Under the pieces are notes generated by a model. It made no database searches. It worked only from the letters and a program-made list of their open reading frames with translations, and was not told the origin of the DNA. DNA of 62,251 nucleotides from positions 1-62,251 of the IMG/VR virus record IMGVR_UViG_3300035661_000066, one strand, 5' to 3'. The DNA comes from a virus. Its lineage: Duplodnaviria > Caudoviricetes. The translations under genes were made by a program, and so were the position numbers. Positions 5,865-54,076 of the stretch are shown in pieces. Each line of letters begins with the position of its first letter. Positions within the stretch are counted from its first letter, which is position 1.

Positions 5865-6209
5865 TTGAGGACCTATGGACGGACCTACGACAGCAACGGG
5901 AACCCCAAGTGGGTGGTGGTGCAGACTGACAGCACAGGTAGCGACGACTACGTTTGGCTGACGACGCTGTGTCAGAACCTGAAATTGAACCTGGGGGAGA
6001 GCCCGTTCTATGCCGACCGAGGTATCCCGGCGCAGCGGGCGGTCATTGAGCAGGTGTTTCCTGACTATTACGTCAACCTGAATCAGCAGTACTTCGCCAG
6101 CTACTTCGCCAGCTTGTCTATTGCCAAGCAGGCGAGCTCAACCCCGACCTACAACATCAACGCGGTGCTGAACAACGGCACTAAACTTCAGACAACGGTG
6201 GCCGTATGA
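5865..6209 (+). CDS. Baseplate wedge subunit (gp25-like)
   Basis: 114 aa, LGESPFYADRGIP motif, RBS AAGGAG, TTG start. Confidence 0.7.
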   Translation: MRTYGRTYDSNGNPKWVVVQTDSTGSDDYVWLTTLCQNLKLNLGESPFYADRGIPAQRAVIEQVFPDYYVNLNQQYFASYFASLSIAKQASSTPTYNINAVLNNGTKLQTTVAV

Positions 6210-7627
6210 CGACAAATACTCTGCCTACGGTGGTGACGAGCGCGGGTCTTCAGCCTCAGAACCCCAATGACTTGCTGGCCCAGCTGCTGAGCTACGTGGC
6301 AGCTACCAACCCAGGTTACACAGCTAACCTGCCGGGCTCCTTGATTGAGGACATCTCCAGCACGGACGTTGGGGCAATGGTGCTGATTGATTCTGCTCGA
6401 GTGGAGGCCGTGAACTCCCTCACCCCGTACGGGGCAAACAACTTCCTGCTGACCCAGCTGGGCAACATGTATGGAGTAGCTCAGGGGCAGACCACCAATA
6501 CCAGCGCTTATGTGGTTTTCACCGGCACCCCAGGCTTTCCCATCAATCCCGGCTTCATCGTGGCTGATAGCGGCCACCAGTACGTTGTGCAGACAGGCGG
6601 CATTGTAGGCGCCAGCGGTACCTCGGCGCCGATCTACGTGGTCGCCAACCAGACAGGTAGCTGGGCGGTACCGCCAAACACGATTACCACGGTCGTAACG
6701 TCGGTCCCCTCGACCATCACGCTCAAGGTGACCAACACCACCGCAGGTACGCCGTCGGCAGCTGCTCAGACCGTGGCGCAGTATCGTGCGCAGGTAATCC
6801 AGGCTGGCCAAGCTTCGGCCACCGGCATGCCGACGTTCCTGAAGACTCAGCTGCTTGGGGTGGCTGGGGTGCAGCCGAACCTGGTAGCTGTACGCCAGGT
6901 AGGCAGCAACTGGCAGGTGATCTGCGGTGGCGGTGACCCCTACCAAACAGCCTACGCGATTTACAAGGGGCTGTTTAACATCAACAACCTCCAAGGCTCG
7001 GCTCTGGCTGTTAGCGGCATCACCAACGCCAACCCCGGGGTGGTCACCACCAACCTGGCCCACGGGCTGGCGACGGGGCAGGTCATCACATTGTCAGGCG
7101 TGGTGGGAATGACCCAAATCAATGGTCAGGCACTGACGATCACGGTAACGTCCCCAACCACCTTCTCGACCGGGATTAATACCACGAGCTATGACACCTA
7201 CACCAGCGGGGGTCAGCTGTCGCCCCACCCACGTACCGTTACGGTAACCATCAACGACTTCCCCGACGCTTACCAGATCCCGTTTGTCAACCCGCCCCAG
7301 CAGCAGGTGGGGATGGTGGCAACGTGGAATACCACCCAGACGAACCTGGTGCTTAACTCTACGGTGCAGCAGCTGGCCACGCCGCCGATGATTAGCTACC
7401 TGAACAGCCTGTCGCCAGGGTACCCCATCAACATCCTGGATCTGCAAAGCATCTTCCAGGCTGCTGTGACCTCGGTGATCCCAGCCCAATACCTGTCGAA
7501 GCTGACCTTCTTGGTCACCATCAACGGGGTGGTGGTGAACCCGACGGCGGGTACTCAGCTGATCTACGGCGACCCCGAGTCCTACTTCTACGCGTCACCG
7601 ACTAGCATCTCGGTTATTAGGGGGTAA
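6206..7627 (+). CDS. Baseplate J-like protein with inserted beta domain
   Basis: 473 aa; gene order; insert ITNANPGVVTTNLAHGL..GVVGMTQING. Confidence 0.8.
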   Translation: MTTNTLPTVVTSAGLQPQNPNDLLAQLLSYVAATNPGYTANLPGSLIEDISSTDVGAMVLIDSARVEAVNSLTPYGANNFLLTQLGNMYGVAQGQTTNTSAYVVFTGTPGFPINPGFIVADSGHQYVVQTGGIVGASGTSAPIYVVANQTGSWAVPPNTITTVVTSVPSTITLKVTNTTAGTPSAAAQTVAQYRAQVIQAGQASATGMPTFLKTQLLGVAGVQPNLVAVRQVGSNWQVICGGGDPYQTAYAIYKGLFNINNLQGSALAVSGITNANPGVVTTNLAHGLATGQVITLSGVVGMTQINGQALTITVTSPTTFSTGINTTSYDTYTSGGQLSPHPRTVTVTINDFPDAYQIPFVNPPQQQVGMVATWNTTQTNLVLNSTVQQLATPPMISYLNSLSPGYPINILDLQSIFQAAVTSVIPAQYLSKLTFLVTINGVVVNPTAGTQLIYGDPESYFYASPTSISVIRG

Positions 7628-7630
7628 GCC

Positions 7631-8383
7631 ATGACCAAGCCGATCCCAGTGCCGATCAACACCATCACGGGCCCAACCACCGTTACGACCACGATCCCAT
7701 CGTACCTGTACCAGCAGTACAGTGATGACCAGGACCTGCAGGCCTTTGTAAGCAGCTACAACACCATGACCCAGCAGTATGTTTCCTGGTTCAACAGCAC
7801 CCTGCTACCGGTCTACACGGACGCCAGCATCACGGGAGGTCTGCTTGACTGGGTGGCGCTGGGGCTGTATGGCTTCACCAGGCCCATCCTGCCCTCTGGG
7901 CTGCCAACCACACGAGGGGCCTACGATACCTGGGCCTACAACACGGTAGCTTACAACCAGTTTAGTGTGTTGCCCGCCTCGTCGTACTACGTTACCAACG
8001 ACGACATCTTCAAGCGCGTGCTGACGTGGCACCTGTACAAGGGGGACGGCAAGCAGTTCAGCATCAAGTGGTTGAAGCGGCGGATCATCCGGTTCCTGAC
8101 TGGCACCAATGGGGCGGGCGGCGTGAATGACAACACCTACCAGGTCAGCGTCTCGTTCTCTGGTAGCCAGGTGAACATCACCATCCGGAACAGCATCCAC
8201 GTCATCACCGGCGGGGCCATTTATGGGGTCTTTGCATATGGATCCGTGGGGTATAATGTAGTCAGAGCCAAGACCGTCAACGCGGCCCCACTGACCAACT
8301 CGGCGGTGCTCCAGGCAGCCATCAATTCTGGTGTCCTCGAGCTACCCTTCCAGTACACCTACACGGTGAGTATTCTCAACTAG
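7631..8383 (+). CDS. Baseplate wedge protein (DUF2612-like)
   Basis: LLDWVALGLYG and DDIFKR motifs; follows baseplate J. Confidence 0.7.
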   Translation: MTKPIPVPINTITGPTTVTTTIPSYLYQQYSDDQDLQAFVSSYNTMTQQYVSWFNSTLLPVYTDASITGGLLDWVALGLYGFTRPILPSGLPTTRGAYDTWAYNTVAYNQFSVLPASSYYVTNDDIFKRVLTWHLYKGDGKQFSIKWLKRRIIRFLTGTNGAGGVNDNTYQVSVSFSGSQVNITIRNSIHVITGGAIYGVFAYGSVGYNVVRAKTVNAAPLTNSAVLQAAINSGVLELPFQYTYTVSILN

Positions 8384-12420: not shown

Positions 12421-12873
12421 ATGATTGATAAAGACCACCGTGGCATCATTACCACGCTGACCGCCGCCGGCTTCATGTCCGCCATCTGCCTGTCAATTAG
12501 CTTGCTGACCGCCTGCGTCACCGTCCCGCAACCCCAACCGGTGCCGGTGAGCCAGCTGCTCCAGCAAGGTTGCCCTTCGGTGCAGGCCGTGAACCAGGTG
12601 CTCCTGGTACCCGGCACCCTGTCGCCGCAGGGGCTGGCTATGCTTCAGCAGATCGCTCCGGTCGTGGATCTGGTGTGCCGCACCGGCTCCCAGCTTAAGC
12701 CCGAGGACACGGCCCAGCTAGCTCGCCAGATTCCGGAGCTGGTCAGGTTGATCCAGGAGTCGACCCTGCCTGAGGAGCGCAAGACGCGCGACACGGTGGC
12801 GCTGACCCTGCTAGCGGCTGCATTGAATCAGCAGGTGCCTCCGCTGCAACCCACCGCGAGTCAAGCCAAATGA
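12421..12873 (+). CDS. Lipoprotein (possible spanin-type function)
   Basis: Hydrophobic signal ending in lipobox LTAC; RBS AAGGAG. Confidence 0.65.
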   Translation: MIDKDHRGIITTLTAAGFMSAICLSISLLTACVTVPQPQPVPVSQLLQQGCPSVQAVNQVLLVPGTLSPQGLAMLQQIAPVVDLVCRTGSQLKPEDTAQLARQIPELVRLIQESTLPEERKTRDTVALTLLAAALNQQVPPLQPTASQAK

Positions 12874-13670
12874 AGCCACTTCGCCTAGCCTTTAGCGGCT
12901 CCGGCTTCCGCCTGGGCGCCCACGTGGGTGCCTTGGAGGCGGCGCTCCAGGTTGGATTTACACCGGTCGAGCTGGCAGGCACGTCCGGGGGCGCCATCGT
13001 TGCGTCCCTGTATGCCTGCGGGATGGGCGCTAAGGAGCTTGAGACCCTATTCCTTGCAACTGACTGGGGCAAGTTCCTGACGCTTGATCTATGGTCGGGG
13101 GTGCGCCGCGGCGGCTACTGCGCTGGGGATGCCTTGCTGGAGCTGCTGCTGGACAAGACGCAGGGCAAGACCTTCAAAGACCTGCAGGTGGAGCTGAAGG
13201 TGGTAGCAGCGGACCTGGTCACCAACTCGGAGGTCATCCTCAGCCGTGAGACCACCCCTGACATGCCGGTGGGCCTGGCAGCTCGTGCCTCGGCGTCCAT
13301 CCCGTTCGTCTTCGTGCCGGTGACCTACAAGGACTGGCTGCTGGTAGATGGTGGCTGCTGTGATAACATCCCGGCGGATCACTTGATCGCGGACGAGGTG
13401 CCGCGGGTGGGGATCCAGCTGACGGAGCCGGCGGCGCGACTGGACGCTGGCAGCTACAGCGTGCTGGACATGGCTGGTCGTGTGCTAGATCTGGTGCTAG
13501 CCTCCAGCGAGGCGGGGCGCGCGCTGGCAGCGCAGCGTAACCAAGCTCATATCGTGGAGGTGCCAACCAGCTACGCCTCTAGTCTAGACACCAAGATGAC
13601 CTTCGCCACCCGCCAGCGCCTGTTGGCTGACGGCTACCGGCTAAGCGCCAAGCTCCTCAAGACGCTGTAA
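12870..13670 (+). CDS. Patatin-like phospholipase
   Basis: SGSGFR Gly loop, GTSGG nucleophile, ASASIP, DGG catalytic motif. Confidence 0.93.
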   Translation: MKPLRLAFSGSGFRLGAHVGALEAALQVGFTPVELAGTSGGAIVASLYACGMGAKELETLFLATDWGKFLTLDLWSGVRRGGYCAGDALLELLLDKTQGKTFKDLQVELKVVAADLVTNSEVILSRETTPDMPVGLAARASASIPFVFVPVTYKDWLLVDGGCCDNIPADHLIADEVPRVGIQLTEPAARLDAGSYSVLDMAGRVLDLVLASSEAGRALAAQRNQAHIVEVPTSYASSLDTKMTFATRQRLLADGYRLSAKLLKTL

Positions 13671-14144: not shown

Positions 14145-14750
14145 TCAGTCGTGCCCATGCTGCAGTGGCTCCCGTGGTTGGTGGAAGCTGTCAGGTGGGG
14201 CTTGCAGGCAGAGCACCCCGTTGGCCAGCCACATGTCGACCACCCGCTGGCGGTCCTCAAAGGCAGCTGCTAGGCGGCAGCGCTTGGTTGGAGCCAGGGA
14301 GTCAAGCCAGCCCTCCTTGAGCCGGTAGTCCGGCGTGAAGTCACCACGCTGCCGCATGGTTATCATACGGCACAGTTGGTCACGTCCCAGCTGCGTGTGA
14401 TGCCGCAACCAGTCAAGCGTCTGGCTGTAGACCTCGTCCGAGCGCCCGGTCCAGATCTCTACCTCCGCACCGCTAAGCAGCAGGGACCTAAGCAGCTGGA
14501 TCATTGGCCAGATGGGGCTGTCATGCACGCAGGCCTGGTAAAAGGCGCGGTAGTTCTTCTTGAAGTCAGGATCTTGACCGGTCACGCCGCACACGGGGCA
14601 GGTGGCACCCAGCGCCACCCCGGCCGGGTTGTCGGCCCGCACCTCACCCAGGCAGTGCGGGCAAGGCGGCGTGGTGATCCAGGCCAGTCGGTGCCGGCAA
14701 TCGGCCAGCGTGCCGTCGAGGTCGAAGATGTAGAGCGGTTGGTTAGTCAC
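14145..14750 (-). CDS. HAD-family phosphatase (PNKP 3'-phosphatase-like) with CxxC-CxxC insert
   Basis: IFDLDGTLAD, WTGR, FEDR motifs; GTG start near 14750. Confidence 0.85.
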   Translation of the reverse strand: MTNQPLYIFDLDGTLADCRHRLAWITTPPCPHCLGEVRADNPAGVALGATCPVCGVTGQDPDFKKNYRAFYQACVHDSPIWPMIQLLRSLLLSGAEVEIWTGRSDEVYSQTLDWLRHHTQLGRDQLCRMITMRQRGDFTPDYRLKEGWLDSLAPTKRCRLAAAFEDRQRVVDMWLANGVLCLQAPPDSFHQPREPLQHGHD

Positions 14751-15039
14751 AGTGCTTCTCCGTGATGGCATTAGGTGTGATAGTTGCGGCCACCCGCACC
14801 GAGCAGACGTGTACGTTGCAAAGCGGACCATCCACGTACGCGCAGCCCACGGCGCGGTAGACCTGGCATTGTTGGCGGGCTTGGCTAACAGTCGGTTGCT
14901 GCTCCAACCGCGCGCGAAGCTCGGCCGCTGCGCGCTCAGCCAGTTGGAGGGCCTCGCCAAAGTTAGCATGCGCCACAGCTAGGCGGGTCACGGTCTGGTT
15001 GATCTGATCCAACAGCTCAGAAAGTTGCTCCATGGTCAC
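14743..15039 (-). CDS. Hypothetical protein, coiled coil plus Cys cluster
   Basis: Overlaps both neighbours; GCAYVDGPLC. Confidence 0.65.
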   Translation of the reverse strand: MTMEQLSELLDQINQTVTRLAVAHANFGEALQLAERAAAELRARLEQQPTVSQARQQCQVYRAVGCAYVDGPLCNVHVCSVRVAATITPNAITEKHCD

Positions 15040-15260
15040 AGCTCCTCGTCATTTAGAAAGTCGTCCTGCCGCTCCTGGCGCAGTCGCTTGGCCTCAGCCC
15101 GGTCCTCGATTTTACGCCGCGCCTCGCAGCGCCGCTTGTCAGCTGGGGTGGCCCTGGTGGACGACACCTCCAGGCGGCCCCACAGCTCCTCCTTGCGCAG
15201 CCGCCGCTTGTTGCCGTACTGCAGGCGGTAGGCGGCGCGCAGCACATGCTGGCTTGTCAT
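15036..15260 (-). CDS. Hypothetical basic protein
   Basis: ATGA-coupled to the deaminase gene. Confidence 0.6.
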   Translation of the reverse strand: MTSQHVLRAAYRLQYGNKRRLRKEELWGRLEVSSTRATPADKRRCEARRKIEDRAEAKRLRQERQDDFLNDEEL

Positions 15261-15874
15261 GGTTGGCTCCAGTCCCGCACCCACAACTTCTCAGGCGCGT
15301 GCTGCACCCACAGCCGGCCGGCGCTCTCCCACAGCTCGCGGGCTGCCGAGTGCGGGTACTCGTCCAGGTAGACGATCCGCACGCAGCTGGTGTTGAGCAG
15401 CAGCTTGGTACAGGTCATGCAGGGGCTGGCTGTGACGTAGCAAGCACTGATAGCGTGGATATCAGGGCACTGGAGTAAGGCATTCTGCTCGGCGTGGATC
15501 GCCTGACAGGCGTCCAGGCTCTGGCCGCTCGGTGCTTCGGCCCCAGCGCAGGCATGTGGGTAGTGGTCGTCGAAGCCGACGCACTGGCGGGCACCCCCGG
15601 TATAGAGCTTAGCGGCGTACTTGATTACCGACTGACTGCCGCTCACCTGCCAGTAGTCCCCCAGGTCAGCGACTCTCGGATCGTCGTGGTAGATGGGTGA
15701 CTGCGCACGTTCATTGCAATGAGGCTGGCCAGCTGCTACGCCGTTGTAGCCGGTGGCCAGCACGTGACCCCGGGCATTGAGCAGCACGGCGCCAACGGCG
15801 CGGCGCTTGCAAGTGGTTCGCTGGGCGGTGATCAAGGCCAGCTGCATGGCCCACTCGTCTCTTGATGGTCGCAT
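15257..15874 (-). CDS. dCMP deaminase
   Basis: TGYNG, HAEQNA, SPCMTC zinc motifs. Confidence 0.92.
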   Translation of the reverse strand: MRPSRDEWAMQLALITAQRTTCKRRAVGAVLLNARGHVLATGYNGVAAGQPHCNERAQSPIYHDDPRVADLGDYWQVSGSQSVIKYAAKLYTGGARQCVGFDDHYPHACAGAEAPSGQSLDACQAIHAEQNALLQCPDIHAISACYVTASPCMTCTKLLLNTSCVRIVYLDEYPHSAARELWESAGRLWVQHAPEKLWVRDWSQP

Positions 15875-15884
15875 TGTTGTCTCC

Positions 15885-16588
15885 CTAGGAGGTTAAGCGG
15901 TGGTGGTTCGCGGTCTCAACTGGCCGATGCAGGGACTCGCCGGCGCCAGCTTCCAGCCCGGCTTCCACACCAGAGCTGTAGAACCGAGACTGACGGGTAA
16001 TGGCCGGCACGATCGGCCCGTAACGGCGCTCGATAAATTGGTTTGTGCTGGCTACCAGCTCCGCTGGCTTAGCAAAAGCTACTACGGTCCTGCTGATCGC
16101 CTCAATCCAACCGATGCAGAAGCCGTTGGCCTCAGTTGTCTTGGCGGTACGCGGCCAGTGGCTGGGCAGCTGCTGCACGTGGGCGGCGCGCGCGCCTTCG
16201 TCAGCTTGCGGAGCAGCACCTGGGCCGTGTATTGTGCGATGGGCAGCTGCGAGCTGGGGCCGACCAGGCGCCAGCTGCCGAACAGCTCCTTGGCCGTGCG
16301 TCCGTGGCTGTTGCCACGCATCCACAGCAGGTGGCAGCCAAAAGCCTCAGCGACAAGACGCATTAGCTTGAGCTCCCAGGCGGGTACCTTGGTAGAGCCA
16401 GCCGTGGAGCGGACGTCGGTCTCGTTAATCTCGCTGACGGCCACGTCCATCGTGGTCAGCCCATGCTTCTCCATGAGCTTCTGCGCTTGGCGCAAGGCGG
16501 CAGCGGCCTCATTAGGCTCGCTTGAGCTGCTGAGCGCCAGGCACTTCTTGATCTTGCGCATGATGTCGTCGCTAGGTCCGGCCATCAC
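15885..16588 (-). pseudogene. DUF2786-family gene split by a frameshift at a (GC)5 tract
   Basis: KIKKCLALS..NEAAAALRQAQKLM N-terminus; reading continues in another frame after 16186-16195. Confidence 0.75.
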
Positions 16589-16603: not shown

Positions 16604-16649
16604 AGTTGCTCAATGCAAGCCGGCCCAGGCCGGCTTGCATTGAGCAACT
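16604..16649. repeat. Perfect inverted repeat, 22-bp arms with 2-nt centre
   Basis: AGTTGCTCAATGCAAGCCGGCC-CA-GGCCGGCTTGCATTGAGCAACT. Confidence 0.95.
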
Positions 16650-16867
16650 TATTCAGCGTTAAGACGGACTTCGTGCTGCACGTGGGCAATCAGCTTCTCA
16701 ACAGTCGTATCAAGAAGTTTAGCCAGCACCTTTGCATGCTTGATGGCGCTGTTATACACGCCACCCAGTGCCCCGTAGGTCAGAGCTTGACCATACTCAC
16801 TAATGAGGTACTCAGTATACAAGGTGGTGTCGAAGCGGGATTTTACCACGTCGGTGTAGGTTGTCAT
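16649..16867 (-). CDS. Hypothetical early protein
   Basis: Directly downstream of a consensus promoter and RBS GAGGAG. Confidence 0.75.
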   Translation of the reverse strand: MTTYTDVVKSRFDTTLYTEYLISEYGQALTYGALGGVYNSAIKHAKVLAKLLDTTVEKLIAHVQHEVRLNAE

Positions 16868-16871
16868 GGCG

Positions 16872-16948
16872 TGAGCTCCTCAGCAGTTGCTCGTTGATCA
16901 TGAGTCTATTATAGCCAGCTAAACCATGCTTGTAAACCATTATTTTCA
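16872..16948 (-). promoter_or_regulatory. Sigma70 promoter cassette
   Basis: TTTACA(16931-36)-N17-TATAAT(16908-13), AT-rich UP element, conserved leader. Confidence 0.9.
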
Positions 16949-16989: not shown

Positions 16990-17793
16990 CTAGTCGTAGA
17001 TCTCCCACCAGCGCCCGAGGTCACCTGGCGCGGAGTCGCGTACCAGCTTCAGGGCGTCCATCAGGTACTGCTCGCTGTGGTACATCAGCATCGGGGTAAT
17101 GCCCTGCACAGGGTCCCCCATCGGGGGCTGCTTCAGCAGTGCCAGGGCCGGCTCGAAGTGCTGCTCGTACAGGTGGCTGCTGGCAGCCGTCAGGTACAGG
17201 ACCCCTGGTATCGCCAGTGGCTCAGCCAGCGGGGACTGGGTCACGTTCAGCCGGCTGCAGATCAGATGGGCCAGCATGCTGAAGTTGAAGACGTCATACG
17301 GCAGCCCCAGCCAGACGTCAGATGAGCGCATGAACACATGCAGGTTCAGCTGGCCGCCCCGTAGGTTGGCGAAGATGGCCACCGTGCATGGCACGTCCTT
17401 GGTGGCTGGCGGGTTCTCGCGCCAGATGGTCAGCCCCGCTTGGCGGGAGTCCGGGTCTGCCAGCAGCTTCGCCACCACGTAGTCCAGCTGGCCGCGGATC
17501 TTGGGGCCGTAGGCCCCAAAGAACGTCTCACCGTTGTCGCTGAACTGGGAGATGTGCTTGTTCCACGGGGCGATCCCTGCCACCGTGTCGTCGCCTGACA
17601 GGATCCAGTAGGCCTCAGCTGCCATGAACTTGTAGCTGAGCTTGCGCGCCGGCACCGTCAGGACCGGCGAGCGCATGCTCACGCAGACCGTGTGCTGGGG
17701 CAGCTCCATGGTTAGTTGACCGCGCGGGCTGACTTGAGTGCCGTAGGTAAACAGCTGCTGGAGGGTCTGCAGCCAAACTTCATTCATTGACAT
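16990..17793 (-). CDS. Thymidylate synthase-family enzyme, predicted dCMP-specific
   Basis: DVPCT catalytic Cys; MRSSD..GLPYDVFNF has Asp at the specificity site; SSHLY. Confidence 0.85.
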   Translation of the reverse strand: MSMNEVWLQTLQQLFTYGTQVSPRGQLTMELPQHTVCVSMRSPVLTVPARKLSYKFMAAEAYWILSGDDTVAGIAPWNKHISQFSDNGETFFGAYGPKIRGQLDYVVAKLLADPDSRQAGLTIWRENPPATKDVPCTVAIFANLRGGQLNLHVFMRSSDVWLGLPYDVFNFSMLAHLICSRLNVTQSPLAEPLAIPGVLYLTAASSHLYEQHFEPALALLKQPPMGDPVQGITPMLMYHSEQYLMDALKLVRDSAPGDLGRWWEIYD

Positions 17794-18742
17794 GGGTAAG
17801 TCCTTTTAAGATGGCGGTCAGCGGGTAGGCCCGGCCGCTGTTAAACCGCTTGGCGTGCTGCGGGTGCGGCACCTTCAGCAGCTGGCGACCGGGCACCAGC
17901 GGCCGTAGTCGCTCGGTAGCCTCGTTCCCCAGCGCGATGACGAAGGTCTCGCCAGCCACGAGCTGGGTAAACAGCTCAGAGCCGATGAACGGGTCGTCGC
18001 TATTTACCCACAGCAGCTGGCGCTCGGTGACGTCGCCCAGCTGGCGGGCCAGCCACTGGCTGCAGCCGCTGTGGCTGAACGAGGCGAAGGGCCACTGGTA
18101 CCAGGGGTCCTGGTCCTTGCGCTCGGCGAAGTCCAGCCCGACGAGCATTAGGCGTGCCTGCAAGTTGCCAGCGGTGCGGTAGGCCAGCGGGTGCCGCGGC
18201 GTGCGGATGCTGTCGACCACCTCCGGGCTGAGCGCACCAAACAGGTCAAAGTCCTGGGTGTAGTCGTACATGTACCGCGGCAGCGCGGTGGTGAGGTCCG
18301 TGTAGTGACCGTAGACCGACAGCAGCTGCGCCTCCGACTCCAAGTACTCCTCCCCACGCCGACCCCGGAAGGTAGCCAGGCAAGCAGCAGCTGGCGGGTG
18401 GCAGTGCACCACCACGGCCCCGCAGCGCAGCGCCAGGCGCTCCAGCATGCGGCGGCTAGCGTCCCCCAGGCGGTCCTGGCCGCCGCGGTAGGCCAGCCCA
18501 TACGGCACCTCGCTTAGCCAGCAGCGGTCGAAGACCACATCCTGGTAGCCCAGCAGCGCGGGCAGCATCGCCTCAACGTACAGCCGCGCCAGCCCCTCGG
18601 TGACCAACGGCAGGGCTGGGAAGTGGACGTAGACGGCGCCGGTCAGCTCGGCAAATCGCCTAGCTGCGGTGGACTTGCCGCTGCCGTCGCAGCCCTCGAA
18701 GATCGTCAGCCGCTTACAGCTGGGTGGTATGCTCAGGGTCAT
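17780..18742 (-). CDS. dNMP kinase fused to a UDG-superfamily-like domain
   Basis: EGCDGSGKST P-loop and FDR motif; C-terminal MLVG..WPF..SG, IALG, PHPQ. Confidence 0.8.
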   Translation of the reverse strand: MTLSIPPSCKRLTIFEGCDGSGKSTAARRFAELTGAVYVHFPALPLVTEGLARLYVEAMLPALLGYQDVVFDRCWLSEVPYGLAYRGGQDRLGDASRRMLERLALRCGAVVVHCHPPAAACLATFRGRRGEEYLESEAQLLSVYGHYTDLTTALPRYMYDYTQDFDLFGALSPEVVDSIRTPRHPLAYRTAGNLQARLMLVGLDFAERKDQDPWYQWPFASFSHSGCSQWLARQLGDVTERQLLWVNSDDPFIGSELFTQLVAGETFVIALGNEATERLRPLVPGRQLLKVPHPQHAKRFNSGRAYPLTAILKGLTHVNE

Positions 18743-19175
18743 CGATGCACCTCCGTTCGTCTACCAGGTTGTCCACCGGATCTAGCCACCTAACCTGCAC
18801 GTAGCCAGCCTCCTCGAGGAGCTTCAAGGTCTTCGGCCCCACCCACCCGGCTGGCTTGATGCAGTCGACCTTGTTGCCGCGCTTGCCCACCCCACGCTCC
18901 TTGGTCATGTTGGCACGCTGCACGTCGTCCCACAGCTCCTTCCAGGGCAGCCCCAGTTGCACCGCGGTACCCTTGGCTACGTAGACCAGGTCAACCAGCG
19001 CATCGGCGATCTCAGCCAGGTCCTGTGTCAAGATGCCGTGCTCCAGCTCAGCCAGCTCCTCACGCAGGAAGTTAAGTCGCTCGAGCAGCTTGCGCTTGGT
19101 CAGGTGCACCGGCTTATCGTGCACCAGCATCCCGAACTTTTGGTGGAACAGCTTTACGTCGTTGAACTCGCTCAT
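18714..19175 (-). CDS. MazG-like (all-alpha) NTP pyrophosphatase
   Basis: EELAEL..DALVDLVYVAKG..VQRANMTK..KPAGW. Confidence 0.85.
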   Translation of the reverse strand: MSEFNDVKLFHQKFGMLVHDKPVHLTKRKLLERLNFLREELAELEHGILTQDLAEIADALVDLVYVAKGTAVQLGLPWKELWDDVQRANMTKERGVGKRGNKVDCIKPAGWVGPKTLKLLEEAGYVQVRWLDPVDNLVDERRCIDDPEHTTQL

Positions 19176-19176
19176 G

Positions 19177-19947
19177 TCACTTCTCCACGACCCACAGGTT
19201 GTTGCGGGCATTGTCGGGGTACAAGCAGCCAAAGATGTTGCTGATGGCATCGTTGTCGAAGTACTGCTCCAGCCCTTGGCGGGTCAGCTTGATGGCCTCC
19301 AGCAGCTTCTTGTTGTCCATGCCGGGCACCTGAGGCTCCACCTTGCCGATGTGCTTGATGTCCATGAACGTGCCGAAGCGGCGGGCTACCTTCAGCCTGC
19401 CCTTCTCGATGTGGGCCTGCAGGGTGGGGACGTCCATCTCGTTAATGTGATTCGCTGCCATGCGCTTGCCATCGTAGACCGGCGTCGAGAGCAGCAGCTT
19501 GCCACCAGGCTTCAAGCACGCGCTGACCGCCTTGATGAAGGCGGGCATGAAGCGGCTGTGGAAGTGCTCGATTACCTCCATGCAGACGATCACGTCATAG
19601 CCCTCGGGATGCAGCTTCAGCAGCTCCTTAAAGCGCTCGATGAAGTTGAACTCCCCGATGAAGGTCAGTCGCTGGCTGCTCGAGGGCTTCAACTTGTTCA
19701 GGTCGACACCCACGTACTTGCCCACGCTAGCGGCCGCGCCACCAGTGAGGATCTTTGACAGCGGCTTGTCCTGCCCGCAGCCGATCTCGAGCACGGTGTC
19801 GGTGGCTTTGATGTAGCGACGGGCGAAGCTCCAGCGGAAGAAGTGCGCCGAGTAGTCCCGGTGCAGGGTGCGGCCGTGGCCAGCCTCGTGCAGCTGGGTG
19901 GTATCGAAGTCGCGCGCGTCGCGCTCTACTACTTTGGTCTTTGCCAT
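19177..19947 (-). CDS. Class I SAM-dependent methyltransferase
   Basis: VLEIGCG, GVDL, YDVIVCMEVIEH, LKPGGKLLLSTP. Confidence 0.88.
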   Translation of the reverse strand: MAKTKVVERDARDFDTTQLHEAGHGRTLHRDYSAHFFRWSFARRYIKATDTVLEIGCGQDKPLSKILTGGAAASVGKYVGVDLNKLKPSSSQRLTFIGEFNFIERFKELLKLHPEGYDVIVCMEVIEHFHSRFMPAFIKAVSACLKPGGKLLLSTPVYDGKRMAANHINEMDVPTLQAHIEKGRLKVARRFGTFMDIKHIGKVEPQVPGMDNKKLLEAIKLTRQGLEQYFDNDAISNIFGCLYPDNARNNLWVVEK

Positions 19948-19979: not shown

Positions 19980-21083
19980 TTACTTGGGCTCGGGCGGGTT
20001 AAGCCCTTGCTTGGTCAGGTAGTTGCGGTACCAGCGAACGTAGCTCCGCTTCTTGTTGCTCAGGTTGAACTTGAGCTGGACGCGCTCAAAGATCTGGTCG
20101 TCGGTCAGCTGCCCCTCCATGATGAGCTTCTGGAACATGCCGGCGGCTGACGAGTCGTTGAACACGCCCGGGTTCTTCAGTGGCCGTACCTCCTTCTTCG
20201 GCTTCTTGGGGCGGTGGATGTGGTCAGACTCGCCCATCAGCTGAGTAGCCTTGGCCGACATTTTGTTGATGGAGGCCCGGTTGACCAGCTTGACCCCAGC
20301 TTCATTGGCGTCGTCGTGGGTGTCCGTATCCTCCCACGGGGTAGACGTGTCCTTGGTGGGCGAGCGTCGCTTGGCTGAGGTCTTGGCTACTGGGGAGGCC
20401 TCGTACTTCTTGCGGTTCTCCACAGCAGCGATAGCCAGCTCCCGCTCGCTGTTAAGCATCTTGCACATCTTGCCCAGCGCGTCCATGGCCTCAGCCGTGG
20501 CTCCCAGGTGCTGGGAGAACTCGACGTAGAGCCGAGCTGCCTTGTCGACCGGGTAGTCAGGCATCGGCTTGTAGCGCTCGTCAAAGACCGCCTCAGAGAT
20601 GACTGCCACCACCAGGCCATCGCTGGCAGACAGCGGGATGTGGTGCACCTGGCCCTTCTCACGGAACAGCTCGATGCAGGTACGGCGCTGGTGGTCAGCG
20701 CAGGGACGGGCTTTCGGGTAGCCCTTGGGTGAGCTCATCTTCGGAACCTCCAGTCTAGTTTTGAGGATGTCTTCCAGCAGCTTAAGCTGCTGGGAGGTTG
20801 ATTTTAAGAGTACCTTGAAGTTGTTGCGCAGCTGCGCCGCCGTCTGGTGGCGCGACTGGTCAAGCCTAGGTAGGAACTGCCGCCAGAAATCGACATGGGC
20901 CAACTCAAGCAGCTGGGCGGTGTAGAGGTTATGCGTCAACACGGTCACAGCGGTCGACGTGACGGCTACCACCAAGGCCTGCTCGCCAGCAATGATGTTA
21001 CCGCCCCCGTAGTTATAGGGGCACCGCTGGAAGCTGACGCCGAGCAGCGCCGAGTCCAGGGCCTTTGGCTTGGTTGAAGCCAT
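19980..21083 (-). CDS. Hypothetical protein with C-terminal 'WYRN' domain
   Basis: 367 aa; possible second start at 20738 after GGAGG. Confidence 0.75.
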   Translation of the reverse strand: MASTKPKALDSALLGVSFQRCPYNYGGGNIIAGEQALVVAVTSTAVTVLTHNLYTAQLLELAHVDFWRQFLPRLDQSRHQTAAQLRNNFKVLLKSTSQQLKLLEDILKTRLEVPKMSSPKGYPKARPCADHQRRTCIELFREKGQVHHIPLSASDGLVVAVISEAVFDERYKPMPDYPVDKAARLYVEFSQHLGATAEAMDALGKMCKMLNSERELAIAAVENRKKYEASPVAKTSAKRRSPTKDTSTPWEDTDTHDDANEAGVKLVNRASINKMSAKATQLMGESDHIHRPKKPKKEVRPLKNPGVFNDSSAAGMFQKLIMEGQLTDDQIFERVQLKFNLSNKKRSYVRWYRNYLTKQGLNPPEPK

Positions 21084-21149: not shown

Positions 21150-21179
21150 ATTATAGCTTAGGTAGGCCGCTACCGTAAA
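21150..21179 (-). promoter_or_regulatory. Sigma70-like promoter for the nucleotide-metabolism operon
   Basis: TTTACG-N18-TATAAT; leader ends CAACTGCTGAGGA like the other cassettes. Confidence 0.65.
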
Positions 21180-38600: not shown

Positions 38601-39083
38601 CTAAAGAAAGACCGCGTTGGTAAAGTCGGTGTGGGCATTCACCACCGCCCACTCCAGGTCAACCTCACGGAAGTCGGCGTGGCGGACCGTGGCGCTTTGC
38701 AGGTTGGCGAACTTCAGGCTCGCCCGGTAGAACGAGGCCCCCGAGGCCGTGGCTTGCCGCAGGTCCGCGTGGTCCAGCGTGGCCCCGATGAACCGCACCC
38801 CCGTGAGCTCGGCCTGCGTCAGGTCCGCGTAGCTCAGGTCGCTACCCGCCAAGTCAGCCCCGATCAGCGTCGCCTGGCTGAGGTTCGTGCCCAGCAGGTG
38901 GCAGCCCCGCAGCTTAGCTCCGATGAGCACGACGCCGGCCAGGTCGAGGCCTGACAGGTCCTGACCCGACAGGTCCACCTCCGTCGTGTGCAGCTGCGCC
39001 AGGCTCTGCTTCAAGATGCTGGCTGGGCAGGTGACGTAAATGCCCCCGTCTAAGTCCTTGATTTGTATGAAGTTTTGTGCCAT
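38601..39083 (-). CDS. Pentapeptide repeat protein
   Basis: Tandem A(D/N)Lxx pentapeptides over about 110 aa. Confidence 0.92.
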   Translation of the reverse strand: MAQNFIQIKDLDGGIYVTCPASILKQSLAQLHTTEVDLSGQDLSGLDLAGVVLIGAKLRGCHLLGTNLSQATLIGADLAGSDLSYADLTQAELTGVRFIGATLDHADLRQATASGASFYRASLKFANLQSATVRHADFREVDLEWAVVNAHTDFTNAVFL

Positions 39084-53358: not shown

Positions 53359-53397
53359 ATAAAGCCGGCCGGGTATGTTTGCCGGCTTTATCTTTTC
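53359..53397 (+). terminator. Probable intrinsic terminator
   Basis: ATAAAGCCGGC...GCCGGCTTTAT followed by CTTTT. Confidence 0.65.
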
Positions 53398-53414
53398 AAT
53401 CAAAGGAGTACGGC

Positions 53415-53687
53415 ATGAATATCTCCATGACGTCGAACGTGACCAACGCGGCGATCATCAAGGGGCAGGGCACCGTCATGAGCCTGGTGGTGGGGGTGCC
53501 CGGCACCGCCAGCCAGGTGGCCATCTACGACGGGTTGTCGCCGGTGGGCCAGCCGATGATCACGCTCAACACCACCAGCCAGCTGGCCATCACCAACTGG
53601 GACCTGCGCTTCACCACGGGGCTGACAATTGTGACGGCTGGCACGGCACCGGCCAACCTGTTGGTGATCGCCCACAAGGGGTTCTGA
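53415..53687 (+). CDS. Small beta-rich putative virion protein
   Basis: RBS AAGGAG; resembles 60305-60664. Confidence 0.65.
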   Translation: MNISMTSNVTNAAIIKGQGTVMSLVVGVPGTASQVAIYDGLSPVGQPMITLNTTSQLAITNWDLRFTTGLTIVTAGTAPANLLVIAHKGF

Positions 53688-53689
53688 TC

Positions 53690-54076
53690 ATGAGCGCGAC
53701 CACGGACTGGACACAGGCAGCAGGTATCTGCTTTGTGGCTGACGGCAAGGTGCTGCTGATGCGACGCGGCAACGGTGGCGACCACCCGCTGGAGTGGGCC
53801 TTCCCTGGTGGTCACCACGAGCCAGGTGAGACCATCGAGGAGACTGCTCGGAGGGAGGCATTTGAGGAGACTGGGTTCCGTTATGAGGGCCCGCTGCAGC
53901 TGATCAGCCGCACCCGCATCGAGAGCACGGAGTTCACGACGTACCTGGCCCACGTGCAGCCGTTCCCGGTGGTGATGTGCCCCGAAAGCATCGATTACCG
54001 GTGGGTGGCACTGGAGGAGGTGCTGGACATGGCAAGGGCACAGCTGCCGACGGACCCAGAAGCGCTAGCTGGTTAA
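53690..54076 (+). CDS. NUDIX hydrolase
   Basis: Nudix box GGHHEPGETIEETARREAFEETG. Confidence 0.92.
   Translation: MSATTDWTQAAGICFVADGKVLLMRRGNGGDHPLEWAFPGGHHEPGETIEETARREAFEETGFRYEGPLQLISRTRIESTEFTTYLAHVQPFPVVMCPESIDYRWVALEEVLDMARAQLPTDPEALAG

What the first reader, a model, noticed from the sequence alone, without database searches (positions are those of the whole stretch)
16990..19947. Predicted cytosine-modification pathway with an extra SAM methyltransferase
Seen: operon of methyltransferase, MazG-like pyrophosphatase, dNMP kinase-UDG fusion and TS homologue, with dCMP deaminase nearby. The TS reads GLPYD where E. coli ThyA has GLPFN. Known: Asn at this site selects dUMP and Asp selects dCMP (T4 dCMP hydroxymethylase); phage Xp12 replaces C with 5mC. 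Inference: the genome carries 5-methyl- or 5-hydroxymethyl-C, the pyrophosphatase removes dCTP, and the small-molecule-type methyltransferase might add a further, possibly undescribed, modification. No glycosyltransferase is evident.
Basis: partly seen in the sequence, partly recalled or inferred. Interest (0 to 1): 0.75.

Follow-up and report, generated by a model that had tools for sequence, protein, structure and literature searches.

The report
Phage hydroxymethylcytosine pathway with dedicated methyltransferase
This phage carries a gene block that should replace the C in its DNA with a 5-hydroxymethyl-C-type base, and the block begins with a phage-only methyltransferase that probably decorates that base further, perhaps giving a DNA base nobody has described.

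Summary
The window is a complete 62-kb phage genome. On its minus strand, four tightly packed genes at 16990-19947 encode a class I SAM methyltransferase (MT), a MazG-type pyrophosphatase, a dNMP kinase fused to a UDG-fold domain, and a thymidylate-synthase (TS) homologue. A dCMP deaminase lies 1.1 kb downstream.

At E. coli ThyA positions 143/146/147/165/169/177 the TS reads D-C-T-M-D-D. That is the signature of T4 dCMP hydroxymethylase. XP12's dCMP methylase reads N-C-P-L-D-D, and RB69's 5-hydroxy-dCMP synthase has N169. The predicted base is therefore 5hmC-type rather than 5mC.

Stenotrophomonas phage AXL3 carries the same cassette. Its DNA was cut by only 2 of 37 restriction enzymes, the two with A/T-only sites.

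The MT family is nearly phage-only. In 66 of 66 assessable IMG/VR loci it sits just upstream of this TS type. It occupies the slot that holds a 5hmC O-carbamoyltransferase in Xp15-type cassettes. Its closest relatives are O-methyltransferases (UbiG by sequence, CmoM by fold).

O-methylation to 5-methoxymethyl-C is the leading guess and is unproven.

Verdict: a new variant of a known kind. Interest 0.6.

The parts
21150..21179 (-). sigma-70-like promoter match (10 of 12) in the gap between the SNF2 helicase gene and the first gene of the block
   Evidence: Three such sites were found in 9.5 kb against 1.7 +/- 1.3 expected, so the match is suggestive only.
19980..21083 (-). conserved gene of unknown function (367 aa), always found between the SNF2 helicase gene and the methyltransferase in relatives
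   Evidence: No Pfam or PHROG hit. tblastn finds it upstream of the MT in most related loci.
19177..19947 (-). phage-specific class I SAM-dependent methyltransferase of small-molecule type, proposed to decorate the modified cytosine
   Evidence: Pfam Methyltransf_23 E 2.8e-16. No DNA-methylase family hit. Model pLDDT 83. Best fold match is CmoM 8joz, Z 20.0. hhalign to UbiG gives 96.8 %. Linked to the TS in 66 of 66 loci.
18714..19250 (-). MazG-like all-alpha NTP pyrophosphohydrolase; the true start is probably the ATG at 19175, one base after the MT stop codon
   Evidence: Pfam PRA-PH E 6.5e-15. phrog_671 E 1.7e-23. PDB DR2231 E 1.4e-7.
18203..18742 (-). dNMP-kinase domain (about residues 1-180) of the fusion protein
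   Evidence: P-loop hits to Thymidylate_kin and AAA_33 fall below the cut-off. phrog_761 thymidylate kinase E 9.2e-13. Fold: YorR 2axp Z 14.2, 163 aligned; TMP kinases Z 12-13.
17780..18190 (-). UDG-fold domain (about residues 185-320) of the fusion protein
   Evidence: VIA-align: 1l9g Z 9.5 (133 aligned), 2d3y Z 9.5 (134), 6ail Z 9.0 (136). Pfam UDG E 0.0011 for the same domain of relative L018. Conserved motifs in 40 sequences.
16990..17793 (-). thymidylate-synthase homologue, predicted dCMP hydroxymethylase (Cys136 catalytic, Asp133, Thr137, Asp159, Asp167)
   Evidence: PF00303 E 9.8e-22. Best PDB hit is the CMP hydroxymethylase MilA. Signature table. Tree.
16908..16936 (-). sigma-70-like promoter match (11 of 12) just downstream of the TS gene, marking the end of the block
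15257..15874 (-). dCMP deaminase with an insertion of about 65 residues
   Evidence: PF00383 E 1e-16, with residues 4-170 covering profile positions 2-101. phrog_174 E 6.8e-35. Found downstream of the TS in 52 of 56 related loci.
14145..14969 (-). HAD/PNKP-type phosphatase, possibly a nucleotide phosphatase; not conserved in relatives
   Evidence: PF25109 E 5.2e-17. No tblastn hit in the 56 related loci. XP12 and Xoo-sp2 have a HAD hydrolase next to their TS.

Best explanation
The block is a pre-replicative cytosine-replacement pathway of the T4 type, and it carries one extra, dedicated enzyme.

Inferred steps:
- The MazG-like pyrophosphatase turns dCTP into dCMP. This keeps dCTP out of the phage DNA and feeds the next step.
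- The TS homologue adds a one-carbon unit from methylene-tetrahydrofolate to C5 of dCMP and lets water attack the intermediate, giving 5-hydroxymethyl-dCMP.
- The kinase domain makes the diphosphate, and host NDP kinase makes the triphosphate.
- The phage family-A polymerase incorporates the modified nucleotide in place of dC.
- The dCMP deaminase supplies dUMP for host thymidylate synthesis. The phage has no second TS, no ThyX and no DHFR.

The methyltransferase belongs to this pathway. It most probably methylates the new hydroxyl group to give 5-methoxymethyl-cytosine, either on the mononucleotide or on DNA. That would cap 5hmC much as glucosylation does in T4 and carbamoylation does in Xp15-type phages.

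The UDG-fold domain fused to the kinase is an optional add-on. It probably binds a flipped pyrimidine or excises one (uracil, or 5hmU arising by deamination).

What is shown: gene content, active-site residues, folds, gene linkage, and the restriction resistance of a relative's DNA. What is inferred: every substrate and product.
For: TS active site. At E. coli positions 143/146/147/165/169/177 the window reads D C T M D D. T4 gp42 and the Xp15 TS (which sits in a carbamoyltransferase cluster) read the same. XP12 and Xoo-sp2 read N C P L D D. RB69 gp48 reads E C T M N D. The dUMP hydroxymethylases of SPO1, M6 and PhiW-14 have N177. ThyA reads L C H Q D N.

Published diagnostics (PMC13326640, sections 24 and 28): N177D selects dCMP, an acidic residue at 143 goes with hydroxymethyl products, and D169N marks 5-hydroxy-dCMP synthases. 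PMC8670742 passages also name positions 177 and 147 as the top discriminators of modified contigs.

Other TS evidence. The best PDB sequence hit is the CMP hydroxymethylase MilA, E 7e-15. In the tree, XP12 and Xoo-sp2 group with canonical TS at 95/96 support, and the window clade lies outside that group. The genome has no DHFR and no ThyX, whereas XP12 and Xoo-sp2 have a DHFR beside their TS.

Wet evidence from a relative. AXL3 has the same MT-NTPase-kinase-TS-deaminase order. Its DNA was cut by 2 of 37 enzymes, both with A/T-only sites (PMC7504290 passages).

Linkage of the MT.
- 74 IMG/VR loci encode an MT relative. Of the 66 with at least 3 kb downstream, 66 have this TS, 63 the MazG gene and 42 the kinase.
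- 69 of 69 TS ORFs in the MT-seeded loci carry D C T M D D.
- 42 of 56 kinase-seeded loci have the MT.
- The MT family is almost wholly viral in the ESM Atlas.
- In GenBank phages it occurs only in AXL3, PW916 and two metagenomic phages.

Slot analogy. In Xp15 the gene upstream of PRA-PH and TS is a carbamoyltransferase, the enzyme class shown to carbamoylate 5hmC (PMC8670742 passages). In other relatives the same slot holds a 5-hmdU-DNA-kinase domain (L070), a PLP enzyme (L044) or C5-DNA-methylase homologues.

O-methyltransferase leanings. NCBIfam hits are led by UbiG, with Hen1, Mtf2, CmoB and BioC among the rest. hhalign to UbiG gives 96.8 %. The top fold match is CmoM, which methylates the C5 side chain of a tRNA uridine: Z 20.0, 212 aligned.
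Against: No nucleoside analysis exists for this phage or for any phage with the cassette.

The methyl-versus-hydroxymethyl call rests on a handful of characterised enzymes. XP12 has Asn at position 143, not a bulky hydrophobic residue, so the rule is loose. The GLPYDV motif is identical in XP12. Deep forks of the TS tree are unresolved (47/34), and T4 gp42 and RB69 gp48 sit on very long branches.

The MT matches are generic class I cores. The fold rows below CmoM are only about 1 Z lower and include N-, C- and O-methyltransferases. hhalign to CmoM itself gives only 54 %.

Fourteen of the 56 kinase-seeded loci lack the MT, and two of those are cut off upstream, so the core works without it. Twenty-four of the 66 MT loci show no kinase of this family within 6 kb.

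Nine related loci carry C5-DNA-methylase homologues in the block. That is hard to square with a C5 position that is already occupied.

The specificity of the MazG protein is unknown; its nearest solved relative is DR2231 of Deinococcus.
Confidence: 0.6

Rival explanations
1. Plain 5hmC genome, with the methyltransferase having another job. The TS, MazG, kinase and deaminase replace C by 5-hydroxymethyl-C as above. The methyltransferase acts on something else: another position of the nucleotide such as N4, an RNA, a protein, a host metabolite, or SAM itself as an anti-defence measure.
For: The core cassette exists without the MT in 14 of 56 kinase-seeded loci, though 2 of these are cut off upstream. 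The MT has no DNA-methylase family hit. Its fold neighbours include N- and C-methyltransferases and cap N7 methyltransferases. The PDB sequence search also lists the Ecm1 cap methyltransferase at E 0.0013.
Against: Linkage to this TS type is strict, 66 of 66 loci, and the MT is immediately upstream of the MazG gene. The MT stop codon lies one base from the likely MazG start. The family is nearly restricted to viruses. The same slot holds known or likely base-decorating enzymes in relatives.
Confidence: 0.2
2. XP12-type 5-methylcytosine genome. The TS homologue is a dCMP methylase, and the DNA carries 5mC in place of C.
For: Asp at position 177, and a GLPYDV motif identical to that of XP12. The restriction pattern of AXL3 DNA would also fit complete 5mC replacement.
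Against: Positions 143, 147 and 165 read D, T, M as in T4 gp42, not N, P, L as in XP12 and Xoo-sp2. XP12 groups with canonical TS at 95/96 support, away from the window clade. The genome has no DHFR, whereas XP12 and Xoo-sp2 have one beside the TS. One relative, L062, does have a canonical-like TS with L143, H147 and D177, and that locus lacks the MT.
Confidence: 0.1
3. 5-hydroxycytosine route. The TS homologue is a flavin-dependent 5-hydroxy-dCMP synthase as in RB69 and DLP3, and the UbiG-like methyltransferase makes 5-methoxycytosine.
For: TS homologues with Asp177 and an acidic residue at 143 can be 5hodCMP synthases (PMC13326640). The nearest sequence relative of the MT, UbiG, methylates ring hydroxyls.
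Against: The paper reports Asn at position 169 in every 5hodCMP synthase it tested. The window and all 69 TS ORFs of MT-linked loci keep Asp169. RB69 gp48 also differs at 173 (V) and 209 (F), where the window keeps G and Y.
Confidence: 0.07
4. Ordinary thymidylate supply, as annotated in the AXL3 and PW916 papers: the deaminase makes dUMP, the TS makes dTMP and the kinase makes dTDP.
For: This is the published annotation (PMC7504290 and PMC9414467 passages). All four families are common nucleotide-metabolism families.
Against: Asp replaces Asn177, and positions 143, 147 and 165 all depart from canonical TS. NCBIfam TS equivalog scores are 46-50 bits against cut-offs of 108-405. AXL3 also carries a ThyX, and its DNA resists all 35 tested enzymes that have G/C in their sites.
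Confidence: 0.03

Closest known systems
T4 hydroxymethylcytosine pathway (gp56 dCTPase/dUTPase, gp42 dCMP hydroxymethylase, gp1 dNMP kinase, Cd dCMP deaminase, alpha/beta-glucosyltransferases). The pathway outline is recalled; gp42 was aligned here.
   Same: Same logic and the same enzyme classes: a pyrophosphatase, a TS-family enzyme, a kinase and a deaminase. The six-position active-site signature of the TS homologue is identical to that of gp42.
   Different: Only 25 % identity to gp42. The pyrophosphatase is MazG-type. The kinase carries a UDG-fold domain. No glycosyltransferase is present; instead a small-molecule-type SAM methyltransferase heads the block. The host is probably a Xanthomonas-like bacterium, and the phage is not T4-like.
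Xp15-type / MetaGPA 5-carbamoyloxymethylcytosine cassettes (carbamoyltransferase, PRA-PH, TS, dCMP deaminase; PMC8670742)
   Same: Same architecture of decorating enzyme, PRA-PH pyrophosphatase, TS with D C T M D D, and deaminase. The paper's passages report co-occurrence of exactly these Pfam domains on modified contigs.
   Different: The decorating enzyme here is a methyltransferase, not a carbamoyltransferase. The Xp15 TS is only 32 % identical.
Stenotrophomonas phage AXL3 (gp27-gp31) and Pseudoxanthomonas phage PW916
   Same: Same five genes in the same order. The MT is 66 % identical and the TS 56-57 %. AXL3 DNA is resistant to enzymes with G/C in their sites.
   Different: Those genomes are 47.5 kb, share almost no nucleotide identity with the window, and were annotated as thymidylate synthesis. 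AXL3 has a ThyX and the window does not.
Xanthomonas phage XP12 (5-methylcytosine)
   Same: Asp177 and the GLPYDV motif in the TS homologue, with a dCMP deaminase and a HAD hydrolase nearby.
   Different: XP12 has N143, P147 and L165, pairs the TS with a DHFR, and has no gene annotated as a methyltransferase, MazG protein or kinase in the 18 kb I looked at.
CmoM and UbiG (cellular O-methyltransferases)
   Same: Closest solved fold (CmoM, Z 20.0) and closest sequence relative (UbiG, hhalign 96.8 %) of the methyltransferase. CmoM methylates an oxygen on the C5 side chain of a pyrimidine.
   Different: 14-18 % identity, covering the SAM-binding core only. The conserved N-terminal 45 residues and the C-terminal 90 residues of the phage family have no counterpart I could align.

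Membership tests
Thymidylate synthase superfamily (PF00303) | Sequence match over the family cut-off, with the catalytic Cys146, Arg166, Ser167, Asp169, His207 and Tyr209 present | tested here: met
   77.8 bits against 24.3. All six residues are conserved in the alignment with E. coli ThyA.
dCMP hydroxymethylase (T4 gp42 type) | Asp at ThyA position 177 (dCMP rather than dUMP) | tested here: met
   Asp167 of the window protein. The same holds in 56 of 56 related loci.
dCMP hydroxymethylase (T4 gp42 type) | Acidic residue at ThyA position 143, three residues before the catalytic Cys | tested here: met
   The motif is TKDVPC, so Asp133. Found in 69 of 69 TS ORFs of MT-linked loci. The rule is taken from PMC13326640 section 24.
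dCMP hydroxymethylase (T4 gp42 type) | The enzyme produces 5-hydroxymethyl-dCMP and tetrahydrofolate | not testable with these tools
   Needs an enzyme assay or nucleoside LC-MS.
dCMP methylase (XP12 type) | Active site like XP12/Xoo-sp2 (N143, P147, L165) or like canonical TS (L143, H147), usually with a DHFR partner | tested here: not met
   The window has D, T, M. No DHFR in the genome. The window lies outside the XP12-plus-canonical-TS clade, which has 95/96 support.
5-hydroxy-dCMP synthase (RB69 gp48 type) | Asn at ThyA position 169 | tested here: not met
   Asp159 is retained. The diagnostic comes from PMC13326640 section 28.
MazG / all-alpha NTP pyrophosphohydrolase | PRA-PH/MazG domain over the cut-off | tested here: met
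   55.8 bits against 21.3. phrog_671 E 1.7e-23.
MazG / all-alpha NTP pyrophosphohydrolase | Specificity for dCTP (T4 gp56-like role) | not testable with these tools
   No sequence rule is known to me. This is inferred from the pathway logic only.
dNMP (thymidylate-type) kinase | P-loop kinase fold of the TMPK/dNK class | tested here: met
   Model pLDDT 90.8. YorR Z 14.2 and TMP kinases Z 12-13. Foldseek E 9.5e-7. Pfam hits reach only the P-loop and fall below the cut-off.
Uracil-DNA glycosylase superfamily | UDG alpha/beta fold with the two motif regions (GE..-type loop, and HP(S/Q) near the C-terminus) | tested here: inconclusive
   Z 9.0-9.5 to three UDG families, but ranked 39-50 behind the kinases, with ranges spanning the whole model. 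Pfam UDG gives E 0.0011 (19.5 bits against 24.3) for one relative and nothing for the window's own domain. His293-Pro-Gln and Asn247 are invariant in 40 sequences; their mapping onto UDG motifs is my reading, not a computed alignment.
Class I SAM-dependent methyltransferase | Rossmann-like SAM-binding domain over the family cut-off | tested here: met
   Methyltransf_23 at 60.1 bits against 27, plus Methyltransf_12, _11, _25 and _31 over their cut-offs. Fold Z 17-20 to many class I enzymes.
DNA methyltransferases (PF00145, PF01555, PF02086) | Match to a DNA methylase family | tested here: not met
   No such family at E <= 0.01 for the window MT. The same scan finds these families readily in neighbouring genes of relatives.
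CmoA (carboxy-SAM synthase) | Match to CmoA models or to the E. coli cmoA gene | tested here: not met
   No CmoA model among the 12 NCBIfam hits at E <= 0.01. A profile search of the E. coli K-12 chromosome finds ubiG (E 2.9e-5) and one weak site, not cmoA.

The most novel reading that the evidence does not exclude
The phage, together with AXL3, PW916 and several hundred uncultured relatives, replaces cytosine with 5-methoxymethylcytosine. That base has not been described in any DNA. It would be made by a dedicated O-methyltransferase acting on 5-hydroxymethyl-dC nucleotides or on 5hmC in DNA. This would be a minimal, sugar-free cap that hides 5hmC from restriction systems that depend on the modification. 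In the same reading, the kinase-UDG fusion couples synthesis of the modified nucleotide to removal of deaminated or unmodified pyrimidines from phage DNA.
Probability: 0.3. Interest if true: 0.8.

Novelty: new variant of a known kind. Interest (0 to 1): 0.6.

Why it matters
TS-based cytosine replacement is well known. Every described follow-up on 5hmC adds a sugar or a carbamoyl group; a methyl ether would be a new natural DNA base and a new enzyme activity.

The family is large. There are hundreds of 90 %-identity clusters (618 proteins at E <= 0.001), spread over soil, mat, sediment and marine phages. Two cultured phages carry it, so a single LC-MS run on AXL3 or PW916 DNA could settle the question.

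It would also correct the published annotation of these genes as thymidylate synthesis. It bears on phage therapy candidates against Stenotrophomonas as well, because modified DNA affects restriction escape, sequencing and engineering.

The kinase-UDG fusion is an undescribed domain architecture with over 500 relatives.

Tried and rejected
- **UDG domain by sequence.** I looked for the UDG domain by sequence in the window's own protein. Pfam at E <= 10, phmmer against PDB, and a 40-sequence profile against PDB all found nothing for the C-terminal half. Only the fold search and one relative's weak Pfam hit support it.
- **Fold searches of the fusion model.** Foldseek on the whole fusion model returned kinases only. 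The UDG rows appeared only in the Foldseek-independent search.
- **Substrate of the MT.** Foldseek gave a flat list of class I small-molecule methyltransferases. The VIA-align re-ranking put CmoM first by about 1 Z, but hhalign to CmoM gives only 54 %. I treat CmoM as a lead, not a finding.
- **CmoA / carboxy-SAM idea.** This was prompted by the C5-DNA-methylase homologues next to the MT in relatives and by PMC12783734. It was rejected for lack of any CmoA similarity.
- **5-hydroxycytosine / 5-methoxycytosine idea.** Rejected because Asp169 is retained.
- **Nucleotide search of GenBank phages.** It found only a 739-nt match, in the MT gene of PW916.
- **Literature searches.**
  - For methoxymethyl-cytosine or -uracil terms: 11 papers, and none of the 10 listed is about nucleic acids.
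  - For MazG, dCMP deaminase, methyltransferase and modified cytosine together: 0 papers.
  - For 5hmC, bacteriophage, O-methyltransferase and TS homolog: 17 papers, 15 listed. PMC13229309 only lists O-methyltransferase domains as co-occurring with phage dioxygenases.
  - These searches cover open PMC and bioRxiv only.
- **Sequencing runs.** Three runs hold the DNA, all kept as contigs only, so there is no read-level signal of modification. I did not lay them.
- **Earlier findings of this scan.** Nothing for this genome or for the kinase fusion. There is one note for an MT relative.
- **Supplements.** I opened none. The AXL3 gel figure S2, the MetaGPA domain tables and Dataset S10 of PMC13229309 could bear on the claims.

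Full report
**What the window is.** The 62,251-base window is a complete virus record of IMG/VR, 100 % complete by CheckV. G+C is about 60 %. It has a terminase, a portal protein and a baseplate-J-like protein on the plus strand, and a long minus-strand replication module: primase-helicase-like protein, ligase, family-A DNA polymerase, PD-(D/E)XK nuclease, exonuclease and SNF2 helicase. At the nucleotide level it matches only a 739-nt stretch of Pseudoxanthomonas phage PW916, inside the methyltransferase gene.

**The observation.** Four minus-strand ORFs fill 16990-19947 exactly.
- 19177-19947 (256 aa) is a class I SAM methyltransferase. Methyltransf_23 scores 60.1 bits against a cut-off of 27, and no DNA-methylase family is hit.
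- 18714-19250 (178 aa) is a PRA-PH/MazG pyrophosphohydrolase, at 55.8 bits against 21.3.
- 17780-18742 (320 aa) has only a P-loop signal by Pfam, but matches PHROG 761 'thymidylate kinase' at E 9.2e-13.
- 16990-17793 (267 aa) is a thymidylate synthase family member, at 77.8 bits against 24.3.

The genes overlap or abut. The methyltransferase stop codon lies one base from an in-frame ATG of the MazG ORF. A dCMP deaminase (205 aa, with an insertion of about 65 residues) is at 15257-15874, and a HAD/PNKP-type phosphatase is at 14145-14969. Promoter-like hexamers lie in the gaps upstream of the conserved unknown gene 19980-21083 and just downstream of the TS gene. The scan as a whole is not above chance: 3 sites against 1.7 +/- 1.3 expected. 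GLPYD is residues 163-167 of the TS homologue. Pfam finds no glycosyltransferase among the 77 ORFs of the window.

**The TS homologue.** I fetched the TS-family genes of reference phages and of E. coli and aligned them. At E. coli ThyA positions 143/146/147/165/169/177 the residues are:

| Protein | Residues |
|---|---|
| Window, MW202621, PW916, AXL3 | D C T M D D |
| T4 gp42 (dCMP hydroxymethylase) | D C T M D D |
| Xp15 TS | D C T M D D |
| XP12 (a 5-methylcytosine phage, recalled) and Xoo-sp2 | N C P L D D |
| RB69 gp48 (5-hydroxy-dCMP synthase) | E C T M N D |
| dUMP hydroxymethylases of SPO1, M6, PhiW-14 | D C N N/Q D N |
| E. coli ThyA and RB69 td | L C H Q D N |

A 2026 paper that I read in sections 24 and 28 (PMC13326640) gives the rules. 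N177D selects dCMP. An acidic residue at 143 accompanies hydroxymethyl products, as in T4-like enzymes and MilA. D169N marks 5-hydroxy-dCMP synthases. Passages of the MetaGPA paper (PMC8670742) name positions 177 and 147 as the two residues that best separate modified from unmodified contigs.

The best PDB sequence match of the window protein is the CMP hydroxymethylase MilA, at E 7e-15, ahead of all canonical TS entries. In a maximum-likelihood tree of 25 proteins, XP12 and Xoo-sp2 join canonical TS with 95/96 support and the window clade lies outside. Deeper forks are unresolved, and T4 gp42 and RB69 gp48 are very long branches. The genome has no DHFR and no ThyX, whereas XP12 and Xoo-sp2 have a DHFR two genes from their TS. 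This matters because a methylating TS oxidises its folate and a hydroxymethylase does not (established enzymology, recalled). I conclude that dCMP hydroxymethylase is the best reading, that a methylase is unlikely, and that a hydroxylase is unlikely.

**The kinase fusion.** The protein has over 500 relatives of similar length at E <= 0.001; the 120 listed are 51-63 % identical, apart from the window's own protein at 100 %. With a 40-sequence alignment AlphaFold gives pLDDT 90.8 and pTM 0.90.

Residues of about 1-180 are a dNMP/TMP-kinase fold: SPbeta YorR Z 14.2 with rmsd 2.9 over 163 residues, and TMP kinases Z 12-13. The C-terminal 135 residues align with three UDG families:
- family-4 UDG 1l9g: Z 9.5, rmsd 3.5, 133 aligned;
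- family-5 UDG 2d3y: Z 9.5, rmsd 3.1, 134 aligned;
- UdgX 6ail: Z 9.0, rmsd 4.6, 136 aligned.

By sequence, only one relative's domain reaches Pfam UDG, at E 0.0011 and below the cut-off.

The domain keeps an invariant His-Pro-Gln near its end and an invariant Asn in a W-x-N-A-D strand end. I read these as the counterparts of the HPS motif and the uracil-reading Asn of family-4 UDGs. That mapping is mine, from recall of those families, and was not computed. The domain is separable. Four MT-linked loci have the kinase domain without it, and 24 of 66 have no kinase of this family within 6 kb.

**Relatives and the only wet evidence.** The order MT, NTP pyrophosphatase, kinase, TS, deaminase recurs in Stenotrophomonas phage AXL3 (gp31-gp27), in PW916 and in a Manatee Spring phage. 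The AXL3 paper (passages read) reports that 37 restriction enzymes with sites in the genome were tried and only TasI and Tru1I cut. Both have A/T-only sites. The authors suspected altered G/C but annotated the genes as thymidylate synthesis. AXL3 also has a ThyX.

**Is the methyltransferase part of the pathway?** I ran two searches of IMG/VR.
- Seeded with the kinase fusion (53 loci, plus the three GenBank relatives): the TS is present in 56 of 56, the deaminase in 52, the MazG gene in 51 and the MT in 42. Two of the 14 loci without the MT are cut off upstream. Fifty-four of the 56 share the window's TS residues. The exceptions are L066 (H147) and L062, which has a canonical-like TS with Asp177 and no MT.
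- Seeded with the MT (74 loci): of the 66 with at least 3 kb downstream, 66 have the TS, 63 the MazG gene and 42 the kinase. Sixty-nine of 69 TS ORFs read D C T M D D when position 143 is taken as the third residue before the catalytic Cys. An automatic alignment had shifted that column by one.

The MT is the most conserved protein of the block, with 69 % mean column identity against 56 % for the kinase. Its Atlas clusters are 88-100 % viral, except for one cyanobacterial cluster. In GenBank phages it occurs only in AXL3, PW916 and two metagenomic phages. The MT thus appears committed to this TS type, though the core can do without it.

**What does it methylate?** This step is inferred.
- *By position.* In Xp15 the gene ahead of PRA-PH and a D C T M D D TS is a carbamoyltransferase, the class shown to carbamoylate the hydroxyl of 5hmC (PMC8670742 passages). 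In other relatives the same slot holds a 5-hmdU DNA kinase helical domain (L070), a PLP-dependent enzyme (L044) or C5-DNA-methylase homologues (9 loci).
- *By similarity.* NCBIfam hits are led by UbiG, with Hen1, fatty-acid and phthiotriol O-methyltransferases, CmoB and BioC among the rest; all are far below their cut-offs. hhalign gives 96.8 % to UbiG over the SAM core and 54 % to CmoM. The model (pLDDT 83) is closest to CmoM, the enzyme that methylates the C5 side chain of tRNA cmo5U: Z 20.0, rmsd 3.9, 212 aligned. Dozens of class I enzymes of all chemistries follow at Z 17-19.
- *Ruled out.* It is not CmoA-like.
- *Unexplained regions.* The conserved, Arg-rich N-terminal 45 residues are predicted disordered and may close over a phosphorylated substrate. 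This is my speculation.

O-methylation of the hydroxymethyl group is therefore the leading guess, at about 0.3-0.4. It is not a result.

**Literature.** I found no paper describing a methoxymethyl pyrimidine in DNA (11 papers held the terms and none of the 10 listed concerns nucleic acids). I found none that discusses this cassette beyond the two phage descriptions. PMC13229309 lists O-methyltransferase domains among the neighbours of phage dioxygenases without characterising them. These searches cover open PMC and bioRxiv only, and I opened no supplements.

An earlier AI note of this scan on another genome (e1-3267152) reached the same reading of an MT-MazG pair. It is not independent evidence. 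I tested the linkage and the TS signature myself.

**Open puzzles.**
- C5-DNA-methylase homologues sit inside the block of nine relatives, although C5 should already be substituted.
- A third of the MT-bearing loci show no nearby kinase.
- The function of the UDG-fold domain is unknown.

**Verdict.** The refinement is that the base is of the 5-hydroxymethyl type. The methyltransferase is a pathway member whose chemistry is open. This is a new variant of a known kind. Interest 0.6.

Noticed in passing
L040:2282-3352, L041:4444-5553, L043:4132-5478, L045:4237-5559, L051:4077-5432, L066:3834-5264, L067:3161-5612, L069:4363-5472, L070:4038-5540: In nine related loci, one or two C5-cytosine DNA-methylase homologues (PF00145) sit between the methyltransferase and the MazG gene. 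These are genomes whose TS predicts that C5 of cytosine is already substituted. They might act on 5hmC, on host DNA or on a partly replaced genome.
   Followed up: partly
L070:3131-8432: A relative carries a 5-hmdU DNA kinase helical domain (PF18723). Its kinase fusion has a longer N-terminus, and its TS gene is interrupted by an intein with an HNH endonuclease.
   Followed up: no
L044:2400-5451: In a relative without the methyltransferase, the slot holds three other genes, including a 512-aa protein with a weak PLP-dependent enzyme match (E 4.7e-6, below the cut-off).
   Followed up: no
L062 (TS near 6953-7780): One relative has a canonical-like TS (W80, L143, H147) with Asp177. This is the signature expected of a dCMP methylase. 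It has no methyltransferase gene.
   Followed up: partly
window 53375-54076 (+): A NUDIX hydrolase (E 2.2e-19) is encoded among the structural genes. It could be a second nucleotide-sanitising enzyme.
   Followed up: no
window 38601-39083 (-): A 160-aa pentapeptide-repeat protein (E 6e-37) lies in the early/replication region. Proteins of this kind can mimic DNA.
   Followed up: no
window 12870-13670 (+): A patatin-like phospholipase (E 9.6e-28) lies next to the lysis/tail region.
   Followed up: no
window 6206-7627 (+): A baseplate-J-like protein carries a ubiquitin-E1 FCCH domain match (E 2.3e-15).
   Followed up: no
window 16082-16588 (-) and 16649-16867 (-): A DUF2786/DUF7168 protein and a 72-aa ORF separate the TS gene from the deaminase here. 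They are absent from that position in the 56 related loci; two loci (L030, L056) have a DUF2786 homologue upstream of the methyltransferase instead.
   Followed up: partly
L146:3490-4774 (Pelagibacter phage HTVC119P): A marine podovirus has a short kinase (157 aa, no UDG domain) directly upstream of a D C T M D D TS homologue that is annotated as thymidylate synthase. It may also carry modified cytosine.
   Followed up: partly
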